Shown: positions 1-61,830 of the stretch, in pieces | How positions within the stretch are numbered: position 1 is the first letter of the stretch | How the letters are laid out: the number at the start of each line of letters is the position of its first letter | Sequence record: OQ708377.1 | Reading direction: 5' to 3' (one strand) | Source: Escherichia phage vB_EcoM_CRP22 | Length of the DNA stretch: 64,000 bases | The notes under the pieces: generated by a model | What the model saw: only the letters and a program-made list of their open reading frames with translations | Databases searched by the model: none | What the model was told of the DNA's origin: nothing | Translations under genes and position numbers: made by a program

Positions 1-254
1 TGTTAGAGCAGACTAAGAAGAATCTATATAAGCAACTTAGCAGTCTCAACACAGACCCTTCAAATACCTTAGAAGCATTTGCAAAGAATGCTCAGAAGGC
101 AATTAAAAGAGGTTTTGGTAATTCTGCTATCCTCCCTCCTAACGCACCTTCCACAGTCAAGAAAAAAGGCTTTAACGCACCTCTTGTTGAGACAGGTGAC
201 TTAAGAGATAACCTTGCTTATAAAATTTCTACTAAGAAGGGTATTAAAAAATGA
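1..254 (+). CDS. 3' end of an upstream virion gene (partial; start lies outside the window)
   Basis: Open frame from window edge to TGA at 252-254, overlapping next ATG (ATGA); sits at head of structural module. Confidence 0.4.
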   Translation, partial: LEQTKKNLYKQLSSLNTDPSNTLEAFAKNAQKAIKRGFGNSAILPPNAPSTVKKKGFNAPLVETGDLRDNLAYKISTKKGIKK

Positions 255-652
255 GACTCTTAAACAGACACAGCTTTGTAGTAAAGCGTAAAGTCTCTGA
301 AGACGGTTATTATAACGATGATGGTGATTGGGTAGCTTCACAAGATATTGTAGAGGTTAACTGTAAAGGTAATATCCAGCCATATATCAAAGGTTCTGTA
401 AAGAATGGTACACAGATTGCTTTACCGGAAGGTATTAGGCTTACCGATACAAGAATCCTGTATACCACATATAAACTTAGAACTTCAGATGATGTAGAGT
501 GGAATGAGTCTGATATTGTTATGATTGATGGTCATGAGTATGAAGTATTTATGACTATGGATTGGTCACAGCAATTAGCCCATACGTCCCATTATGAATA
601 TATCATTATTAGAAGGGATAAAATGAATGCAGTTAGAAACAGCAGAACTTGA
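251..652 (+). CDS. hypothetical virion protein (head-tail joining region)
   Basis: 133-aa ORF, co-oriented and tightly packed upstream of tail genes. Confidence 0.4.
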   Translation: MRLLNRHSFVVKRKVSEDGYYNDDGDWVASQDIVEVNCKGNIQPYIKGSVKNGTQIALPEGIRLTDTRILYTTYKLRTSDDVEWNESDIVMIDGHEYEVFMTMDWSQQLAHTSHYEYIIIRRDKMNAVRNSRT

Positions 653-37097: not shown

Positions 37098-37355
37098 ATG
37101 AAAGATTTAATAGAAAAACATGAGCGACCTATATACTTGCTCCACAAGCCTCGGAAAACGATGTACTATGTGAGTAGCACAGATATGATGATAAAACAAA
37201 AGGATGACTCATGGGTTGCTGGTATCTCTTACATCTCTACAGCAGATGGTAAAATCTACGCAAGACCTTATGAGATGTTCAACAAAGAAAATTGGGAAGT
37301 TTTAGACAGAAAACAAGCCTTAGAAATGATAAAGAAAGGAGAAATCACGCTATGA
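37098..37355 (+). CDS. hypothetical protein
   Basis: Start at ATG 37098 (MKDLIEK...) preceded by GGAGAG; stop overlaps nrdB start (ATGA). Confidence 0.3.
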   Translation: MKDLIEKHERPIYLLHKPRKTMYYVSSTDMMIKQKDDSWVAGISYISTADGKIYARPYEMFNKENWEVLDRKQALEMIKKGEITL

Positions 37356-38425
37356 TTAACCAGCACCCAATCTTTTTAGGTGGTGAGAGAAAAACTTTTG
37401 ACTCACTTAATAAACACTACCCAAAAATCTTTGAGCTTTATAAACAACAAAAAGCACAAGATTGGTCAGAAGATGAGTTCCCTTTTGAACAATCACGTCT
37501 TGATTTTGAGAGTGTTCCAGCATCAATGTCAGGTGTAATGCTTGAGATTCTTAAGTGGCAGTGGGAAGCAGATACTCAAGTTGCTAAGAGCTTGGCATTT
37601 GCCTTTGCACCCTTTATCTCTGATGATATCTATGCAACTGCAATTATGAAGCAGTCTGAGATTGAAAACCTACATGCTCTTACTTACTCAGAGATTGTAA
37701 GGCAATGTATTAAAAACCCTGAAACAATCTTAGATGAGATTAACCAGAATGTTGCTGTACAAGACCGATTAAAAACTGTGAATCGTGTTCTTGAAGAATT
37801 GCTGGATGAAGGTATAAACTACCGACTGAGTTATGTCCGTGACTCACTTCTGGACAAAGACCCTTTACACTTCCATAAAGTGATTCTAAAAGGTCTATTT
37901 GCAGTGACTGCACTTGAAGGTATTTCTTTTATGGCATCCTTTGCATGTACTTTTGCACTTGATGCTCAAGATAAATTTCAAGGTATTGCTCAAGCTGTCC
38001 AGAAAATTATGCTTGACGAAATCCTTCACACTAAAATTGATATTGAAGTTTTAAAAGAAACTTTAAGAGATGATGAGTGGCAAAAAGCTTTCCAACAAAT
38101 TCTTCCAGAGATTAAAGTAATCTTAGATGAAGTAGTTGAAAGTGAAGAGAAATGGTCGTATTATATCTTCTCCGAAGGACGTGCTGTAGTTGGGTTAAAT
38201 ACAAAGCTTCTTCATGAGTGGGTTTACTATAATGCTGCCCCACTGTATGATATGTTTGGCATTCCCAGAGATTTTGTAGCTCCTAAAGAACCACCTTTGA
38301 AGTACATGATTAAGAAGATGGAAATTGATAAAGAGCAGAATGCTAATCAGGAGCAACAGAACGGTGCGTACCTGTTGAATACTGTTGTAGATGATTTGAA
38401 TAGTGGATTTTTAGAGGTTCCTTAA
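37352..38425 (+). CDS. nrdB: ribonucleotide reductase class Ia small subunit
   Basis: Start at ATG 37352 preceded by AGGAG; about 357 aa; directly follows nrdA. Confidence 0.75.
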   Translation: MINQHPIFLGGERKTFDSLNKHYPKIFELYKQQKAQDWSEDEFPFEQSRLDFESVPASMSGVMLEILKWQWEADTQVAKSLAFAFAPFISDDIYATAIMKQSEIENLHALTYSEIVRQCIKNPETILDEINQNVAVQDRLKTVNRVLEELLDEGINYRLSYVRDSLLDKDPLHFHKVILKGLFAVTALEGISFMASFACTFALDAQDKFQGIAQAVQKIMLDEILHTKIDIEVLKETLRDDEWQKAFQQILPEIKVILDEVVESEEKWSYYIFSEGRAVVGLNTKLLHEWVYYNAAPLYDMFGIPRDFVAPKEPPLKYMIKKMEIDKEQNANQEQQNGAYLLNTVVDDLNSGFLEVP

Positions 38426-38667
38426 TGACTTATGTAATTTACTCCAAAACTGGATGCCCTCAATGTGAGACTGCAAAGAATTTTGCAAAAGCTCGTGGTA
38501 TTGACCATGTTGTGAGAATGTTGGGGCAGGATTATGAACTGTCAGACCTGATTGATATTGCACAGATGCCAGTTCGTCAGATGCCATTCATCATGAAAAC
38601 TGATGGTCAAAATCTAAAACCTGTTGGAATGCTACAGAATTTCATGGCAGAGGTGAATAATGCTTAA
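38425..38667 (+). CDS. nrdH: glutaredoxin/NrdH-like redoxin
   Basis: 80 aa with CPQC redox motif near N-terminus (YSKTGCPQCETAK). Confidence 0.6.
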   Translation: MTYVIYSKTGCPQCETAKNFAKARGIDHVVRMLGQDYELSDLIDIAQMPVRQMPFIMKTDGQNLKPVGMLQNFMAEVNNA

Positions 38668-38914: not shown

Positions 38915-40111
38915 ATGAACAAAGTACAGATTATTAAAAAGAATGGCTCACTCGAAGAACCTGATATCAAAAAAGTTTTAGCAGCAGTCACAAAGTCAGC
39001 TAACAGGGTTGGATATAAAGAACTCCCACCAGATGTTACCCAAGCTCTTGAGTCAGCATTTATGAGGATTCTGGTAAAATCTACTAAACAGAATAATTTG
39101 CTAATTTCTGTAAATGATATTCACAGTATTGTTGAGGGTGCTTTGGCAGAAGTCAATCACGAGATTTATGAGTCTTACTCAACATATAGAAATTACCGTA
39201 AAGAAGTTGCTCAAAATTGGGATGAGCTTTACCAGAAGACCAAAGACACACTCTTCTTAGGTGACAGAGAGAATGCTAACTTTGATAGCAGTTTAATTTC
39301 TACAAAAGGTTCAATTATTCGTGGTTATCTGACTAAAGAAATCTTTAAACAGTACCACTTAACACCAGAGGAACTTGAAGCCATTGAAAAAGGGTTTATC
39401 TACATCCATGACTTAAGAGACCTAATTTTTGGTGGTATCAACTGTTGCCTGTTCGACATTGGTAAAGTCCTGAAAGGTGGCTTTGAAATGTCCGGCATCG
39501 AATATTGTGAACCAAAGTCTGTGCTGTCGGCATTACAGGTTATTGGTGACGTAGTTCTTTCAGCAACTGCACAGCAATTTGGTGGATTTACTTTAGCAGA
39601 GATTGATAAGGTACTTGTACCGTATGCTAAGAAGTCTCTACGCTATCATGCTGAGAAAGCAGCATCTTATGGTATTCCTAAAGAGCATTACCACAATTAT
39701 GTCATGGAGCAGCTACAGATTGAGCTAACTCAAGGTTTCCAGTCACTTGAAATGAAACTAAATACTGTACCTTGTAGTCGTGGGGATTTTGCATTCACAA
39801 CTTTGACATTCGGGTTACTTGACTCAGATATGTCCAATGAAGATAACCGACTGCAATATATAATTGCAAGTACTCTCCTAGATGTTCGTATGAATGGACA
39901 AGGTAAGAGCAAAAAGCCTGTTGTATTCCCTAAACTGGTTTATATTTATGACCAGAAGAGACATAATGAGAATATCTGTCAAGGACACCTGTACAGTAAA
40001 GCCATTGAGTGTTGCTCTAAAGCAATGTATCCAGATTTCTTAAGTGTATCTGGTCATGGTGCTGTAGCAGAGGCTTTTGAGCGTTCTGGCAAGGTAATTT
40101 CACCGATGGGT
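38915..40111 (+). CDS. nrdD: anaerobic ribonucleotide reductase, exon 1
   Basis: 399 codons ending ...GKVISPMG immediately before an in-frame TAA that begins the intron; continues as CRAFLSP... in exon 2. Confidence 0.75.
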
Positions 40112-40852
40112 TAACAAGCTCTATAGCTCATCTAAAACGTGCCTAAACAGGGAAACTCTACAGGTGTAGACAATCCTGTGCTAAATGATGTACGATGTAA
40201 GAAACTATATAAATAGGAGTATTACATGCCAAATTATCATGTTACTGAGGACGGAAGAGTCTTTAGGAAAAATGGTGTAGAACTTACGCAGTGGAAATCC
40301 AACACTGGTTATATGAAAGTAAGGTTTTATGGAAGGAAGAATCGTGACATGTATGTCCATAGGTTAGTTGCTGAAAAGTATGTACCTAACCCTAACAATC
40401 TTCCAATTGTAAAACACAAAGATGATAACAAACTGAACAACCATGCTTCTAACTTAGAATGGGGAACTCATTCTGAGAATGTTAAAGAGGGTTATGAAAA
40501 CGGTTGCTACAAGTTTTGTAAGCGTTCATATGCTGTGAAGGCTACACACAAAGTGACAAAAGAAGTTATTGTTGCTAAGTCAATACGAGAGTTATCCAAC
40601 ATACTCGGATATAATCGCAAGACTATCTCTTCAATATTGAAGGGTGTAAAAGAGCATAATAACTTTGAACATGAATTTGAGTACATTTAAATGCCGAACG
40701 ACTAACCGTGATGAATGTAGCGGTGTAGGGTCAAGCGACTCGAAATGGTACGCTACTTAGAAATAAGTAGAAGATATAGTCTGGACTTACTGGTGACAGT
40801 AAGCAGCTTGAATAAAGCGGGGTAAGCGTAGCGAACTTACCTGAACAACAAG
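40112..40852 (+). mobile_element. group I self-splicing intron interrupting nrdD, carrying an HNH endonuclease ORF
   Basis: Exon 1 ends in U, intron ends in G; 5' core (CTAAACAGGGAAACTCTACAGGTGTAGACAATCCTGTGCTAAAT) and 3' core (GTAGGGTCAAGCGACTCGAAA ... GATATAGTCTG ... CTGAACAACAAG) resemble the phage T4 td intron as recalled. Confidence 0.7.
40226..40690 (+). CDS. intron-encoded HNH homing endonuclease
   Basis: 154 aa; HNH-like core (VHRLVAEKY...NHASNLEWGTHSEN); located in intron loop with its own RBS (ATAGGAG). Confidence 0.65.
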   Translation: MPNYHVTEDGRVFRKNGVELTQWKSNTGYMKVRFYGRKNRDMYVHRLVAEKYVPNPNNLPIVKHKDDNKLNNHASNLEWGTHSENVKEGYENGCYKFCKRSYAVKATHKVTKEVIVAKSIRELSNILGYNRKTISSILKGVKEHNNFEHEFEYI

Positions 40853-41800
40853 TGTAGAGCGTTTTTATCACCATATCATAACGAAGATGGTGAAGAGTTT
40901 TATGTTGGTCGTGCTAACATTGGTGCTGTATCTTTGAACTTGCCAATGATTTACCAGTATTCTAAAGAGAATGGTTTAGATTTCTGGAAAGAGCTTGATA
41001 AGTACCTAGAGATGATTCGCAGCTTCCACAAGAAACGCTACGAAATGATTGCTAACATGCCAGCAAGTTCTAACCCTCTGGCATTCACACAAGGTGGTCT
41101 GTACAAAGGGACTAAGAAACCTACTGACAAGGTTGGTTGGGATATCGTGAAGTCCTTCACAGCTTCTTTTGGGGTTACTGCGCTTGATGAACTATCTGTT
41201 CTTGCTGAAGGTAAACGACTTCATGAAGTTGGAAGTTCTAGTTTTGCATACGATGTTCTGGCATACATTAACATGAAAACTGAAGAGTTTAAGAATGAAG
41301 ATGGCTTCCTGTATGCAGTATATGGCACTCCAGCAGAGTCATTGTGTGGAACTCAGCTAAAACAGTTCAGAGATATGTTTGGCGTTATCAAAGGCGTTTC
41401 TGATAAGGAATATTTTACAAACAGTTTCCATATGAATGTTGCAGCAGATATCTCACCATTTGAGAAGCAGGACTTAGAAGAGCCATTCTTCCATATCTGT
41501 AGAGGCGGCAGAATCCAGTATGTGAGGGTAGCTAACCCAGAAAACTTACCAGCACTTAAAAGTTGTATTACAAGAGGGATGTTGAAAGGTTTTTATCAGG
41601 GACTTAACTTTGACTTAGCAATCTGCGAACATTGTGGCAACAGACCAAAGGCTGATGTTGAAGAATGTGAGGTTTGCCATTCACATGACATCTCTGTGAT
41701 TAACAGAGTGTGTGGGTATCTTGGGTGGACTAAGATTAAAGGTGAATCCCGAATGAATGATGCAAAAATTGCTGAGATTCGTGACAGGGTTTCTATGTAA
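40853..41800 (+). CDS. nrdD: anaerobic ribonucleotide reductase, exon 2
   Basis: In-frame continuation CRAFLSPYHNEDGEEF...; C-terminal glycyl-radical motif RVCGYLG; Cys cluster CEHCG...CEVCH. Confidence 0.75.
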   Translation, partial: CRAFLSPYHNEDGEEFYVGRANIGAVSLNLPMIYQYSKENGLDFWKELDKYLEMIRSFHKKRYEMIANMPASSNPLAFTQGGLYKGTKKPTDKVGWDIVKSFTASFGVTALDELSVLAEGKRLHEVGSSSFAYDVLAYINMKTEEFKNEDGFLYAVYGTPAESLCGTQLKQFRDMFGVIKGVSDKEYFTNSFHMNVAADISPFEKQDLEEPFFHICRGGRIQYVRVANPENLPALKSCITRGMLKGFYQGLNFDLAICEHCGNRPKADVEECEVCHSHDISVINRVCGYLGWTKIKGESRMNDAKIAEIRDRVSM

Positions 41801-42582: not shown

Positions 42583-43068
42583 ATGAATTACATGGAGATT
42601 CGACCATTTGACACAGCTAATGGTGAAGGGGTTCGTGTAAGCCTCTTCGTAGCTGGTTGTAAACATCACTGTGAAGGCTGCTTTAACAGGGAGTCTTGGA
42701 AGTTTAATGCTGGTAAAGAGTTTACTTATGCAAACCTCTACGGCATCATTAAGTTAATGGATGATAAGGCCATTAGTGGGTTGTCAATACTTGGTGGAGA
42801 GCCTCTTGATGATAGAAACATTCAAGAGGTCACCAACATATGTAAACGTATTAAAACTGTTTACCCAGAAAAATCTATCTGGCTCTGGACAGGTTTTCAG
42901 TTACACGAAAAAATCCACCTAGATGTGATGAAATATGTTGACGTGGTGATTGATGGTAAGTATGATTCATCTAAACCAACAGTTAAACCATATCGTGGTT
43001 CTGATAACCAAAACCTCTGGAGAAAAGAGTATGGGTGGCAAGGCGATTGTCAATGGCGAGCAGAGTGA
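42583..43068 (+). CDS. nrdG: anaerobic RNR activating enzyme (radical SAM)
   Basis: 161 aa with CxxxCxxC motif (CKHHCEGC) near N-terminus; adjacent to nrdD. Confidence 0.8.
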   Translation: MNYMEIRPFDTANGEGVRVSLFVAGCKHHCEGCFNRESWKFNAGKEFTYANLYGIIKLMDDKAISGLSILGGEPLDDRNIQEVTNICKRIKTVYPEKSIWLWTGFQLHEKIHLDVMKYVDVVIDGKYDSSKPTVKPYRGSDNQNLWRKEYGWQGDCQWRAE

Positions 43069-61153: not shown

Positions 61154-61402
61154 ATGTATACTAAAACTCAACTAAAAAACATGGTTAGCAATGGCTTAAT
61201 GGATGAAGTCTATAAAGAGTGTAGACGATATGGAGAAATCAAAGGTAAAACAAGCTATGAATACACCCACACAATAAACTTTAAAACTAATGAGCAAAAA
61301 ACCGACTTAATAACTAGCATTATAATTGAGTATAAAGGTATAATATGGTCCTTTGAGCTAGTGAAAGGTGAGTGCATAGAAATCGAATACAAAGACGCTT
61401 AA
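61154..61402 (+). CDS. early-region protein
   Basis: 82 aa. Confidence 0.4.
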   Translation: MYTKTQLKNMVSNGLMDEVYKECRRYGEIKGKTSYEYTHTINFKTNEQKTDLITSIIIEYKGIIWSFELVKGECIEIEYKDA

Positions 61403-61488
61403 AAGTACTTTACAAGGGGCTTAAAAGTTGATATCTTAAGCCCCAGATAAAGAGCTTTACCACTAAATCCTAAACTGGAGATTCAAAA
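61403..61488 (+). promoter_or_regulatory. intergenic module A copy 7
   Basis: Identical core to copy 6. Confidence 0.5.
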
Positions 61489-61830
61489 ATGGCTTATGTA
61501 ACCGTAATTACTGATAAAGCTGGCTCATCTTGGTCAACTCAAGTAAGTGATAAGATGTCACCTATGCAGTGCCTAAAATACTTTGAGCAGTGGAACAAAG
61601 GCGAGGATGTCAGCCCCTTTCAAGTGATGCAAATCATCCATACAGATAACGAAGGAAACAAAACGACACTTAATAGTGAGTATTACACAAATCGTTTTGA
61701 GAGTCGAGTTGAAACGATGAAGGGGCTGCGTGAGGCCGGATATGGGCACATTGCCGCCTTGTTATGGGATGACCTGCTAAAAAGTCAGCGTATCAGCTAC
61801 ATAAAACCTGAAAAAATATTCATCAGTTAA
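61489..61830 (+). CDS. early-region protein
   Basis: 113 aa. Confidence 0.4.
   Translation: MAYVTVITDKAGSSWSTQVSDKMSPMQCLKYFEQWNKGEDVSPFQVMQIIHTDNEGNKTTLNSEYYTNRFESRVETMKGLREAGYGHIAALLWDDLLKSQRISYIKPEKIFIS

What the first reader, a model, noticed from the sequence alone, without database searches (positions are those of the whole stretch)
40112..40852. Group I intron with HNH homing endonuclease splitting the anaerobic RNR gene nrdD
The nrdD frame stops at TAA right after ...GKVISPMG (40111) and resumes in frame at 40853 with CRAFLSPYHNEDGEEF..., running to the glycyl-radical motif RVCGYLG. The intervening 741 nt begins after an exonic U and ends with G, and carries 5' and 3' core segments resembling the T4 td group IA2 intron as I recall it. 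A 154-aa HNH endonuclease ORF with its own RBS lies in the middle. The insertion is next to codons for the conserved SPMG-C motif, as expected for homing into conserved catalytic sequence.
Basis: partly seen in the sequence, partly recalled or inferred. Interest (0 to 1): 0.55.

Follow-up and report, generated by a model that had tools for sequence, protein, structure and literature searches.

The report
Self-splicing intron splitting phage nrdD
A Felix O1-like phage carries a mobile self-splicing (group I) intron, with its own DNA-cutting enzyme gene, inserted just before the catalytic cysteine codon of its anaerobic ribonucleotide reductase gene; it is a clean but ordinary, already-annotated example of a well-known kind of phage parasite.

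Summary
nrdD (38915-40111) stops at a TAA that is the first three bases of a 741-nt insert (40112-40852), and the frame resumes at 40853. Felix O1 itself lacks exactly these 741 nt.

The window is a Felixounavirus (98.6% identical to Salmonella phage NJ12). The insert is a group I intron of the phage IA type (P7.1/P7.2 present, no P2), with a 154-aa I-HmuI-like HNH endonuclease gene in the P6 loop.

- Rfam hits both halves below threshold because the ORF splits the core. Natural ORF-less alleles (316 nt) score 54.8 and 53.3 bits, above the gathering score of 50.
- Across 12 lineages the proposed P1-P10 structure is 93% paired, with compensatory changes in 48 of 74 pairs.
- Roughly 60 database records carry intron plus ORF, about 34 an ORF-less intron, and about 144 no intron.
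- Intron-plus alleles share a distinct haplotype in the first ~50 nt of exon 2, which fits homing with co-conversion.

The site differs from the T4 nrdD intron site (about 110 codons upstream). It lies immediately 5' of the codon equivalent to T4 NrdD Cys290, and related introns occupy it in many other phage lineages. Sister phages are already annotated with joined exons. Splicing and cleavage themselves were not tested.

The parts
38915..40111 (+). nrdD exon 1 (399 codons: ATP-cone plus N-terminal half of the class III RNR large subunit), ending ...SPMG with GGT
   Evidence: ORF list. Pfam NRDD 3.8e-41 and ATP-cone 4.3e-12. Colinear with Felix O1 NrdD.
40112..40852 (+). Group I intron, 741 nt. 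It begins with an in-frame UAA and ends with the terminal G (omega-G) at 40852.
   Evidence: Exact 741-nt insertion relative to Felix O1. Rfam RF00028 split hits. ORF-less alleles above the gathering score. Covariation.
40120..40131 (+). Internal guide sequence. UCUAUA (40120-40125) pairs with 3' exon UGUAGA (40853-40858) to form P10. GCUCAU (40126-40131) pairs with 5' exon AUGGGU (40106-40111) to form P1, with the U.G wobble at the splice site.
   Evidence: Read from the sequence. P1 is 93% paired and P10 68% paired over 12 lineages. The guide changes together with the exon in F88 (UGCCGA/UUGGCA) and L026 (UGUCG/CGACA).
40138..40190 (+). 5' half of the ribozyme core: P3 5' strand 40138-40143; P4 40147-40152 with 40174-40179; P5 40157-40161 with 40166-40170; P6 5' strand 40180-40181; P6a 5' strand 40187-40190. 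There is no P2.
   Evidence: Rfam alignment. Pair counts: P3 100% paired with 5 of 6 pairs compensatory; P4 100% paired.
40215..40219 (+). Shine-Dalgarno AGGAG of the intron ORF, 6 nt before the ATG
   Evidence: Sequence. Annotated as an RBS in the sister phage Meda.
40226..40690 (+). Intron-encoded HNH homing endonuclease gene (154 aa) in the P6 loop. Its stop codon (40688-40690) lies inside the 3' side of P6/P6a.
   Evidence: Pfam HNH_3 2.6e-10, NUMOD1 weak. PHROG 59 at 1.3e-43. I-HmuI (PDB 1U3E) E = 4.5e-10 over residues 3-145. Replaced by a 12-codon remnant in ORF-less alleles.
40684..40852 (+). 3' half of the ribozyme: P6a/P6 3' strands 40684-40687 and 40693-40694; P7 40700-40704 with 40777-40781; P7.1 40705-40708 with 40721-40724; P7.2 40728-40732 with 40737-40741; P3 3' strand 40747-40752; P8 40753-40770 (GAAA loop); J8/7 40771-40776; P9 40786-40803 (GUGA loop); P9.1 40806-40818; P9.2 40820-40842; omega-G 40852.
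   Evidence: Rfam hit of 38.1 bits including GAAGAUAUAGUCU. Covariation per helix: P7.2 4/4, P8 6/7, P9 5/7 and P9.2 6/7 pairs compensatory; P7 invariant.
40853..41800 (+). nrdD exon 2, starting with the Cys codon equivalent to T4 NrdD Cys290 and running through the glycyl-radical motif RVCGYLG to the stop
   Evidence: Pfam NRDD 7.7e-65 and Gly_radical. In T4 NrdD the Cys of SPMGC is residue 290 and the Gly of the radical motif is residue 580. The first in-frame start codon inside exon 2 is TTG at 40934.

Best explanation
This is a mobile group I intron of the phage IA type, the same kind as the three T4 introns. It interrupts the anaerobic ribonucleotide reductase gene nrdD of a Felix O1-like phage between the Gly399 and Cys400 codons.

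Splicing (inferred):
1. On the nrdD pre-mRNA, ribosomes translating exon 1 stop at the UAA that forms the first three intron bases.
2. The RNA folds into the conserved P3-P9 core with the IA-specific P7.1/P7.2 helices.
3. The guide sequence GCUCAU pairs with exon AUGGGU (P1, U.G at the cleavage site), and a free guanosine attacks after U40111.
4. The adjacent guide segment UCUAUA holds the 3' exon UGUAGA (P10).
5. After the terminal G40852 docks, the exons are ligated to GGU-UGU. This restores a 714-aa NrdD whose catalytic cysteine codon lies immediately after the junction.

Mobility (inferred): the 154-aa ORF looped out of P6 is translated from its own RBS into an I-HmuI-like HNH endonuclease. 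In mixed infections it would cut or nick intron-less nrdD alleles near this site. Recombinational repair from the intron-plus genome would then copy in the intron together with about 50 nt of the 3' exon.

Shown here: exact insertion, fold, covariation, endonuclease homology, presence/absence polymorphism, the ORF-deleted derivative, and the exon haplotype linked to the intron.
Inferred: catalytic splicing, endonuclease activity and its target, and the direction of gene conversion.
For: - Precise 741-nt insertion relative to Felix O1, restoring a colinear NrdD that is 701/714 identical.
- Rfam RF00028 hits both halves in the window (38.1 and 16.5 bits). ORF-less alleles with near-identical ribozyme sequence (98.7% identical to ORF-bearing sister alleles) exceed the gathering score (54.8 and 53.3 against 50). 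Intron-less Felix O1 gives no hit.
- On 12 diverse family members the proposed structure is 93.2% paired, against 71.3% +/- 1.0 in shuffles (0 of 500 reach it) and 35-41% when the 3' partners are slid. 48 of 74 pairs show changes on both sides. The covariation score is 0.583 against 0.07-0.10 for the slid controls.
- The guide sequences track their own exons in other lineages.
- The ORF is HNH_3 above Pfam's cut-off. Its best solved relative is I-HmuI, E = 4.5e-10, with the H-N-N motif aligned.
- Three allele states exist in the genus: about 60 records with intron plus ORF, about 34 with an ORF-less intron, and about 144 without an intron.
- Intron-plus versus intron-minus exon divergence is 18.1% in the first 50 nt of exon 2, 3.5% in the last 50 nt of exon 1, and 5.8% in the next 50 nt. 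Position +3 is T in 14/14 intron-plus and C in 6/6 intron-minus alleles.
- Annotators of the sister phages JohannRWettstein and Meda already join the two exons.
Against: - There are no RNA or protein data, so splicing and cleavage are inferred.
- The window's own Rfam scores are below the gathering score, as expected with a 465-nt ORF in P6. I could not score an ORF-deleted copy of the window sequence itself.
- P10 is only 68% paired across the family.
- The covariation alignment used ORF-trimmed sequences, and the structure was projected from the window row, which favours the true register somewhat. The slid controls address this only partly.
- The exon haplotype could partly reflect selection for P10 pairing or shared ancestry rather than co-conversion.
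Confidence: 0.93

Rival explanations
1. Genes-in-pieces. A free-standing homing endonuclease gene has split nrdD into two separately translated polypeptides that reassemble into an active enzyme, as mobE does to nrdA in Aeromonas phage Aeh1. No RNA splicing is involved.
For: Many GenBank records annotate two separate nrdD CDSs flanking an HNH gene. The literature describes the locus only as 'nrdD split by a homing endonuclease' (PMC4837284). The Aeh1 precedent is summarised in PMC3653736.
Against: - A complete, covarying group I ribozyme flanks the ORF.
- ORF-less alleles keep the 316-nt ribozyme.
- Exon 2 has no start codon at the junction. The first in-frame start is TTG at 40934, 27 codons in, so a separate product would lack the catalytic Cys400 and the conserved CRAFLSPY segment.
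- The guide sequence pairs with both exons.
Confidence: 0.03
2. Decayed intron. The insert derives from a group I intron but no longer splices, so nrdD is a pseudogene in this phage, tolerated because the aerobic nrdAB genes suffice.
For: The window's own Rfam score is below the gathering threshold. nrdD is dispensable in some related phage groups (PMC7344957).
Against: - Both exons are intact and 98% identical in protein to uninterrupted Felix O1 NrdD.
- All core helices are intact in the window sequence, and the ribozyme segments are nearly identical (98.7% between ORF-less and ORF-bearing alleles) to alleles scoring above the threshold.
- P1 and P10 pairing is preserved. The +3 U that strengthens P10 is fixed in all 14 intron-plus alleles examined.
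- The same intron is conserved in about 90 records.
Confidence: 0.03
3. The same element as the classical T4 nrdD (sunY) intron, inherited or transferred at the orthologous site.
For: It is in the same host gene. It shares the guide hexamer GCUCAU and the P7.1 loop UGAUGAAUGUA, lacks P2 like sunY, and has 70% ribozyme identity.
Against: - The T4 intron lies after nt 538 of nrdD, about 110 codons upstream of the SPMG|C site, and T4's own SPMGC is uninterrupted.
- T4's intron encodes the GIY-YIG enzyme I-TevII in the P9.1 region, not an HNH enzyme in P6.
- Ribozyme identities across the family are star-like (55-73%), so no special T4 nrdD relationship is resolved.
Confidence: 0.01

Closest known systems
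Phage T4 nrdD (sunY) group IA2 intron with I-TevII
   Same: Same host gene. Same intron class with P7.1/P7.2, and no P2. Same P1 guide hexamer GCUCAU and the same P7.1 loop. The 5' exon hexamers are similar (AUGAGU in T4, AUGGGU here). Ribozyme identity is 70%.
   Different: The insertion site is about 110 codons upstream in T4. The T4 endonuclease is GIY-YIG and sits in the P9.1 region rather than being an HNH in P6.
Phage T4 td group IA2 intron with I-TevI
   Same: The endonuclease ORF is looped out of P6 and ends in the 3' strand/J6/7 region. Both introns start with an in-frame UAA. The 3' domain (P7.2, P8, P9, P9.1, P9.2...GAACAUAAUG end) is very similar. Identity is 64%.
   Different: td has a P2 hairpin and a short P7.1 without the UGAUGAAUGUA loop. 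Its host gene is thymidylate synthase, and its endonuclease is GIY-YIG.
I-HmuI, the HNH nicking endonuclease of the Bacillus phage SPO1 DNA-polymerase intron (PDB 1U3E)
   Same: Closest solved relative of the window ORF: E = 4.5e-10, aligned over nearly the full length, with the HNH motif residues aligned. It is also intron-encoded in a phage. From general knowledge, I-HmuI nicks one strand close to the insertion site.
   Different: Different host gene and phage group. The window protein lacks about 10 N-terminal residues of I-HmuI. Its activity and nick position are untested.
HNH-bearing nrdD introns of Vequintavirus SYGMH1 and Vibrio phage F88
   Same: Identical insertion point (..MG|CR..). 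Related ribozymes (70-73% identity), with the HNH ORF in the same P6 loop, and related endonucleases (50% and 42% identity).
   Different: Different phage families and divergent NrdD exons. The guide sequences are adapted to each exon. In the records these loci are annotated only as split genes plus an HNH gene.
Joined-CDS annotations in the felixounaviruses JohannRWettstein (MZ501086) and Meda (MH586731)
   Same: The same intron at the same site, 94-96% identical, with nrdD annotated as a two-piece join around the endonuclease gene. The BASEL paper says intron boundaries were set by comparative genomics.
   Different: I found no published RNA-level description (class, structure or splicing test) for this genus. 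Most other records annotate two separate nrdD genes.

Membership tests
Group I self-splicing intron (Rfam RF00028) | Covariance-model match at or above the curated gathering score | tested here: met
   The window is split by the ORF into 38.1-bit and 16.5-bit hits, below the score of 50. Natural ORF-less alleles of the same intron (HMD-P8, L27) score 54.8 and 53.3 bits, and intron-less Felix O1 gives nothing. I could not score an ORF-deleted copy of the window sequence itself.
Group I self-splicing intron (Rfam RF00028) | Conserved core helices P3-P9 supported by compensatory base changes | tested here: met
   93.2% of cells are paired and 48 of 74 pairs show changes on both sides. The covariation score is 0.583 against 0.07-0.10 for slid controls, and 0 of 500 shuffles reach it. 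P3 is 100% paired with 5 of 6 pairs compensatory; P7 is invariant.
Group I self-splicing intron (Rfam RF00028) | 5' splice site after a U paired to G in P1; the guide sequence also pairs with the 3' exon (P10); the intron ends in G | tested here: met
   U40111 pairs with G40126 within AUGGGU/GCUCAU. P10 is UGUAGA/UCUAUA. G40852 is invariant in the alignment. Two family members (L028, L056) appear to have C or A at -1.
Group I self-splicing intron (Rfam RF00028) | Removal restores an uninterrupted, conserved reading frame | tested here: met
   The spliced ORF of 714 aa is 701/714 identical to Felix O1 NrdD.
Group I self-splicing intron (Rfam RF00028) | Guanosine-dependent self-splicing of the transcript | not testable with these tools
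   This needs in vitro transcription with GTP, or RT-PCR from infected cells.
Subgroup IA (IA2-like, phage T4 type) | Extra helices P7.1 and P7.2 between P7 and the 3' strand of P3 | tested here: met
   P7.1 is ACCG/CGGU and P7.2 is GGGUC/GACUC, 98% and 100% paired, with compensatory changes in 2/4 and 4/4 pairs. The two free positions of the search pattern covary perfectly with the unsearched 3' strand.
Subgroup IA (IA2-like, phage T4 type) | Sequence similarity to the T4 td, nrdD and nrdB introns | tested here: met
   BLAST hit to the T4 td intron at 71% over 160 nt. Ribozyme identity is 70% to T4 nrdD and 64% to T4 td. nrdB was not compared. The formal IA1/IA2/IA3 assignment rests on my recollection of the Michel-Westhof scheme.
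HNH (HNH_3, I-HmuI-like) intron-encoded homing endonuclease | HNH catalytic domain above the curated threshold, with motif residues present | tested here: met
   Pfam HNH_3 scores 40.2 bits against a cut-off of 24.8. The alignment to I-HmuI keeps the HKD..NK.NN...NL.W.T...N motif. PHROG 59 scores 1.3e-43.
HNH (HNH_3, I-HmuI-like) intron-encoded homing endonuclease | [quoted passage not shown] | tested here: met
   Three allele states occur in the genus. An exon-2 haplotype is linked to the intron: 18.1% divergence in the first 50 nt against 3.5% upstream. One intron-plus allele (L057) has a shorter tract.
HNH (HNH_3, I-HmuI-like) intron-encoded homing endonuclease | Site-specific cleavage or nicking of the intron-less allele | not testable with these tools
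   This needs purified protein and Felix O1 nrdD target DNA.
T4 nrdD (sunY) intron / I-TevII element | Same insertion site in nrdD and a GIY-YIG endonuclease | tested here: not met
   The T4 site is after nt 538, alignment column 282 against 411 here. T4's SPMGC is uninterrupted. The endonuclease here is an HNH.
Intein | Insert read in frame with the host protein without stop codons | tested here: not met
   The insert begins with an in-frame TAA at 40112-40114, and the HNH ORF has its own RBS and start codon.
Free-standing endonuclease 'genes-in-pieces' split (Aeh1 mobE type) | No ribozyme; the downstream gene piece has its own translation start at the break | tested here: not met
   The ribozyme is present. 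There is no start codon at the junction; the first in-frame start is 27 codons into exon 2.

The most novel reading that the evidence does not exclude
The boundary just 5' of the catalytic cysteine codon of nrdD (..MG|CR..) may be a pan-phage homing hot spot colonised by one related ribozyme lineage.

Introns with the same P7/P7.1 signature sit at this exact boundary in Felixounavirus, Vequintavirus, Vibrio phages, a T4-like NrdD and several uncultured lineages. Their guide sequences are re-tuned to each host exon. They carry at least two groups of HNH genes, or none.

The classical T4 sunY intron, whose 5' exon hexamer AUGAGU resembles AUGGGU, could be an ectopic offshoot of this lineage at a look-alike site.
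Probability: 0.35. Interest if true: 0.4.

Novelty: already known. Interest (0 to 1): 0.25.

Why it matters
For annotation, most Felix O1-like genomes in GenBank list two truncated nrdD genes plus an HNH gene, or spurious small ORFs inside the ORF-less intron. They should carry a single joined nrdD.

For biology, this genus offers all three stages of the homing cycle within about 95%-identical genomes used in phage therapy and biocontrol: empty site, intron with endonuclease, and intron with a deleted endonuclease. A visible co-conversion footprint comes with them. That makes it a convenient natural system for measuring intron drive in phage populations.

The wider recurrence of related introns at the same catalytic-cysteine codon illustrates, once more, that homing elements settle in the most conserved parts of essential genes. 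None of this changes current understanding of group I introns.

Tried and rejected
1. **Rfam at gathering threshold on the whole window.** It found nothing. This is explained by the 465-nt ORF splitting the core. The sensitive search found both halves, and a whole-window scan at E<0.01 found no other intron.
2. **T4-style late promoter for the HNH gene.** TATAAATA lies at 40208-40215, just upstream of the RBS. I rejected this reading because the octamer occurs 4 times in the window against 3.85 expected, it is not conserved among alleles, and Felix O1 is reported to lack T4-like promoter-specificity factors (PMC3185647).
3. **A hairpin sequestering the RBS and start codon (about 40195-40227).** It is predicted, but is no better than shuffled sequence (z = -0.51). 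Unsupported.
4. **The T4 sunY intron as the nearest relative, or a transposed copy.** Identities are star-like (55-73%), with sunY at 70% and td at 64%. Unresolved, and kept only as part of the novel case.
5. **Intein and genes-in-pieces readings.** Rejected; see the membership tests.
6. **Literature.** I found reports of a 'split nrdD with homing endonuclease' in Felix O1-like phages (PMC4837284), 'two introns' detected as ncRNAs in Felixounavirus SPJ41 (PMC9951933), and the statement that Felix O1 itself has no introns (PMC3185647). I found no RNA-level study of this intron. One literature query failed on a too-short term, so the role of T4 NrdD Cys290 as the thiyl-radical residue rests on my own knowledge plus the residue numbering computed.
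7. **My first automatic pick of the T4 nrdD splice site (x=514) was wrong.** The intron-like 5' end and the GAACACAUUG 3' end fix it at nt 538. The conclusion of a different site is unaffected.
Full report
**What the window is.** Megablast of 39900-41100 finds 348 phage records. The best is Salmonella phage NJ12 (98.6%), followed by JH2, SP116, UAB_Phi87 and others, all Felix O1-like myoviruses of the genus Felixounavirus. The finding lies in a ribonucleotide-reductase cluster:
- nrdB, 37352-38425
- glutaredoxin, 38425-38667
- nrdD, in two pieces
- nrdG, 42583-43068

**Checking the observation.** It holds at every stated coordinate.
- The nrdD ORF from 38915 ends ...GKVISPMG, followed by TAA at 40112-40114.
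- The frame resumes at 40853 with CRAFLSPYHNEDGEEF and runs to RVCGYLG and a stop at 41800.
- Pfam places exon 1 on NRDD profile positions 1-250 (plus an ATP-cone) and exon 2 on positions 264-560 (plus Gly_radical). The two pieces are therefore adjacent parts of one protein.
- The 154-aa ORF at 40226-40690 is HNH_3 (40.2 bits, cut-off 24.8) with a weak NUMOD1 match. AGGAG lies 6 nt upstream of its ATG.

**Defining the insertion.** Felixounaviruses show three states over the 1201-nt query: 1201 nt, 776 nt and 460 nt. The last figure is exactly 1201 minus 741. Alignment with Felix O1 (intron-less) gives ...CCGATGGGT|TGCAGAGC.... Joining the exons yields a 714-aa protein that is 701/714 identical to Felix O1 NrdD.

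The 776-nt state (HMD-P8, L27) is the same intron with an in-frame 426-nt deletion of the endonuclease gene. It leaves ATG CCA AAT AAC ... TAA, a 12-codon remnant, inside a 316-nt intron.

**Is it a group I intron?**
- At Rfam's gathering threshold the window gives nothing.
- A sensitive search finds RF00028 twice. One hit is 40623-40803 (38.1 bits, E = 5e-8), including the hallmark GAAGAUAUAGUCU J8/7-P7 segment. The other is 40147-40220 (16.5 bits), covering P3-P6. This is what an ORF in a peripheral loop does to a covariance model.
- The natural ORF-less alleles, whose ribozyme parts are nearly identical to the window's, score 54.8 and 53.3 bits against a gathering score of 50. Intron-less Felix O1 scores nothing.

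**Structure.** I derived a full secondary structure by comparison. There is no P2.

| Helix | Pairing |
|---|---|
| P1 | exon AUGGGU / 40126-40131 GCUCAU |
| P10 | 40120-40125 UCUAUA / exon UGUAGA |
| P3 | 40138-43 / 40747-52 |
| P4 | 40147-52 / 40174-79 |
| P5 | 40157-61 / 40166-70 |
| P6, P6a | flank the ORF |
| P7 | 40700-04 / 40777-81 |
| P7.1 | 40705-08 / 40721-24 |
| P7.2 | 40728-32 / 40737-41 |
| P8 | 40753-70 |
| P9 | 40786-803 |
| P9.1 | 40806-18 |
| P9.2 | 40820-42 |
| terminal G | 40852 |

**Covariation test.** To test the structure I collected relatives:
- introns at the same site in Vequintavirus SYGMH1 and Vibrio phage F88;
- the T4 nrdD intron;
- 56 IMG/VR loci carrying the P7-P7.1 motif.

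Twelve distinct ORF-trimmed introns were aligned, and the structure was projected from the window row.

| Measure | Observed | Control |
|---|---|---|
| Cells forming a standard pair | 93.2% | 71.3% +/- 1.0 in shuffles (0/500 reach it); 35-41% when partners are slid |
| Pairs with changes on both sides | 48 of 74 | — |
| Covariation score | 0.583 | 0.07-0.10 (slid) |

P3 is 100% paired with 5 of 6 pairs compensatory. P7.2, P8, P9 and P9.2 are rich in double changes, and P7 is invariant. The guide sequence also follows the exons. F88 has 3' exon UGCCGA opposite UUGGCA, L026 has UGUCG opposite CGACA, and L044 has UGUAG opposite CUACA.

Two caveats apply. The structure came from one of the aligned sequences. 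P10 is only 68% paired overall.

**The endonuclease.** The closest solved structure is I-HmuI (1U3E; E = 4.5e-10; residues 3-145 against 12-163), with the HNH motif aligned. PHROG 59 'HNH endonuclease' scores 1.3e-43. The ORF sits in the P6 loop, as I-TevI does in the td intron. Its stop codon lies within the 3' side of P6/P6a.

**Evidence of mobility.**
- *Census.* 244 records match the nrdD junction region. 178 of them are uninterrupted or carry the short intron. 59 carry the full 1201-nt form. 93 carry the ribozyme at 95% identity or more. That gives about 60 with intron plus ORF, about 34 ORF-less and about 144 intron-less, with duplicate GenBank/RefSeq entries included.
- *Exon haplotypes.* In 14 intron-plus and 6 intron-minus alleles, divergence between the two classes is 18.1% in the first 50 nt of exon 2. 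It is 3.5% in the last 50 nt of exon 1 and 5.8% in the following 50 nt.
- *Within the intron-plus class.* These alleles are unusually uniform on the 3' side.
- *Position +3.* It is T in all intron-plus and C in all intron-minus alleles, and U+3 pairs with A in P10.
- *Exceptions.* One intron-plus allele (L057) switches to the intron-minus haplotype from +26 onwards. One intron-minus allele (L070) carries most of the intron-plus haplotype.

This pattern is what homing with 3'-biased co-conversion, plus occasional recombination or intron loss, would leave. It does not prove it.

**Relation to the T4 introns.** The T4 nrdD intron (1033 nt) lies after nt 538 of the gene and encodes I-TevII (GIY-YIG) in the P9.1 region. 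T4's own VSPMGCRSF is uninterrupted. In a four-way NrdD alignment the T4 site is at column 282, while the window, SYGMH1 and F88 sites are all at column 411. So this is a different site.

In T4 numbering the Cys after the junction is residue 290 and the radical Gly is residue 580. From my own knowledge of the T4 NrdD literature, Cys290 is the thiyl-radical cysteine, which would place the intron directly before the catalytic codon.

Ribozyme identities are star-like. The window is 73% identical to F88, 70% to SYGMH1, T4 nrdD and L026, and 64% to T4 td. The window intron lacks P2 like sunY, and carries its ORF in P6 like td.

**Side observation.** Many of the IMG/VR introns recovered with the P7-P7.1 motif are followed by exons beginning C-R-[AS]-[FY]-L. 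For L011, L017, L026, L045 and L056 these exons run on to RVCGYLG or RICGYLG, so they are nrdD at the same boundary. These introns carry either no ORF (247-263 nt) or HNH genes falling into two groups. Window/SYGMH1/F88 are 42-52% identical to each other, L011/L045/L056 are 32-46%, and identity between the groups is 20-35%. One group (L012 type) appears to be inserted 4 nt upstream. The Cys codon of nrdD thus looks like a recurrent target across phage lineages.

**What is already known.**
- Felix O1 itself was reported to have no introns (PMC3185647), which agrees with what I see.
- Bardina et al. noted nrdD split by a homing endonuclease gene in UAB_Phi87, HB-2014 and JH2 (PMC4837284).
- An SPJ41 paper lists 'two introns' among ncRNAs (PMC9951933).
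- The GenBank records of JohannRWettstein and Meda join the two nrdD exons. The BASEL paper states that intron boundaries were set by comparison.
- Group I introns with endonuclease genes in phage RNR genes, including nrdD, are textbook material (PMC2988022, PMC3653736, PMC12880540).

I therefore rate the element as already known, correctly read by the first stage, and of modest interest.

**Not supported.** A T4-type late promoter at 40208-40215 and an RBS-sequestering hairpin were both examined and dropped.

Noticed in passing
L011, L013, L017, L026, L028/L062, L045, L056 (IMG/VR loci); L006 and L007 (GenBank phages): Related IA-type introns with the same P7-P7.1 signature occupy the identical nrdD boundary (..MG|CR..) in many unrelated phage lineages. 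Some carry HNH genes of two different groups and some carry none. Their guide sequences are adapted to each exon.
   Followed up: partly
L012, L029, L040, L049, L055 (IMG/VR): A further intron type appears to be inserted 4 nt upstream of the common site (TCGCCGAT|...|GGGATGCCGG), with guide GUCGGCG pairing to CGCCGAU. The exact 3' boundary was not confirmed.
   Followed up: no
L028/L062 and L056 (IMG/VR), 5' splice sites: The last exon base before the intron appears to be C (ATGGGC|) in L028/L062 and A (ATGGGA|) in L056, instead of the near-universal U. This would replace the U.G wobble in P1. The boundaries were inferred only by alignment.
   Followed up: no
L070 (Escherichia phage pEC-M719-6WT.1, OQ845957), nrdD positions +9 to +54 after the junction: This intron-less allele carries most of the exon-2 haplotype otherwise seen only in intron-plus alleles (all but +3 and +26). 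It could be a precise intron loss, or a representative of the donor lineage.
   Followed up: partly
L004 (HMD-P8, PQ568382) and L005 (L27, LC473039), and many records: Public annotations list exon 2 as a separate gene starting at a downstream start codon (284-288 aa). In L27 they also list small 'hypothetical proteins' inside the ORF-less intron. These are annotation artefacts of an unrecognised intron.
   Followed up: partly
NC_071010 (Salmonella phage vB_SAg-RPN213), record 61376-61667: This record holds a shorter (about 292 nt) and more divergent (89%) ORF-less version of the Felix-type nrdD intron, suggesting further decay of the P6 remnant.
   Followed up: no
window 40208-40215: TATAAATA, the T4 late-promoter octamer, lies just upstream of the HNH gene's RBS. 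It is not enriched in the window and not conserved among alleles, so it is probably coincidence.
   Followed up: yes
L021, L036, L041, L047, L050 (115-138 kb Aeromonas-phage-like contigs): The same ribozyme family, here 300 nt, ORF-less and with an enlarged P1/P2 region, interrupts a different, unidentified gene (5' exon ...ATCAAGGGT|).
   Followed up: no
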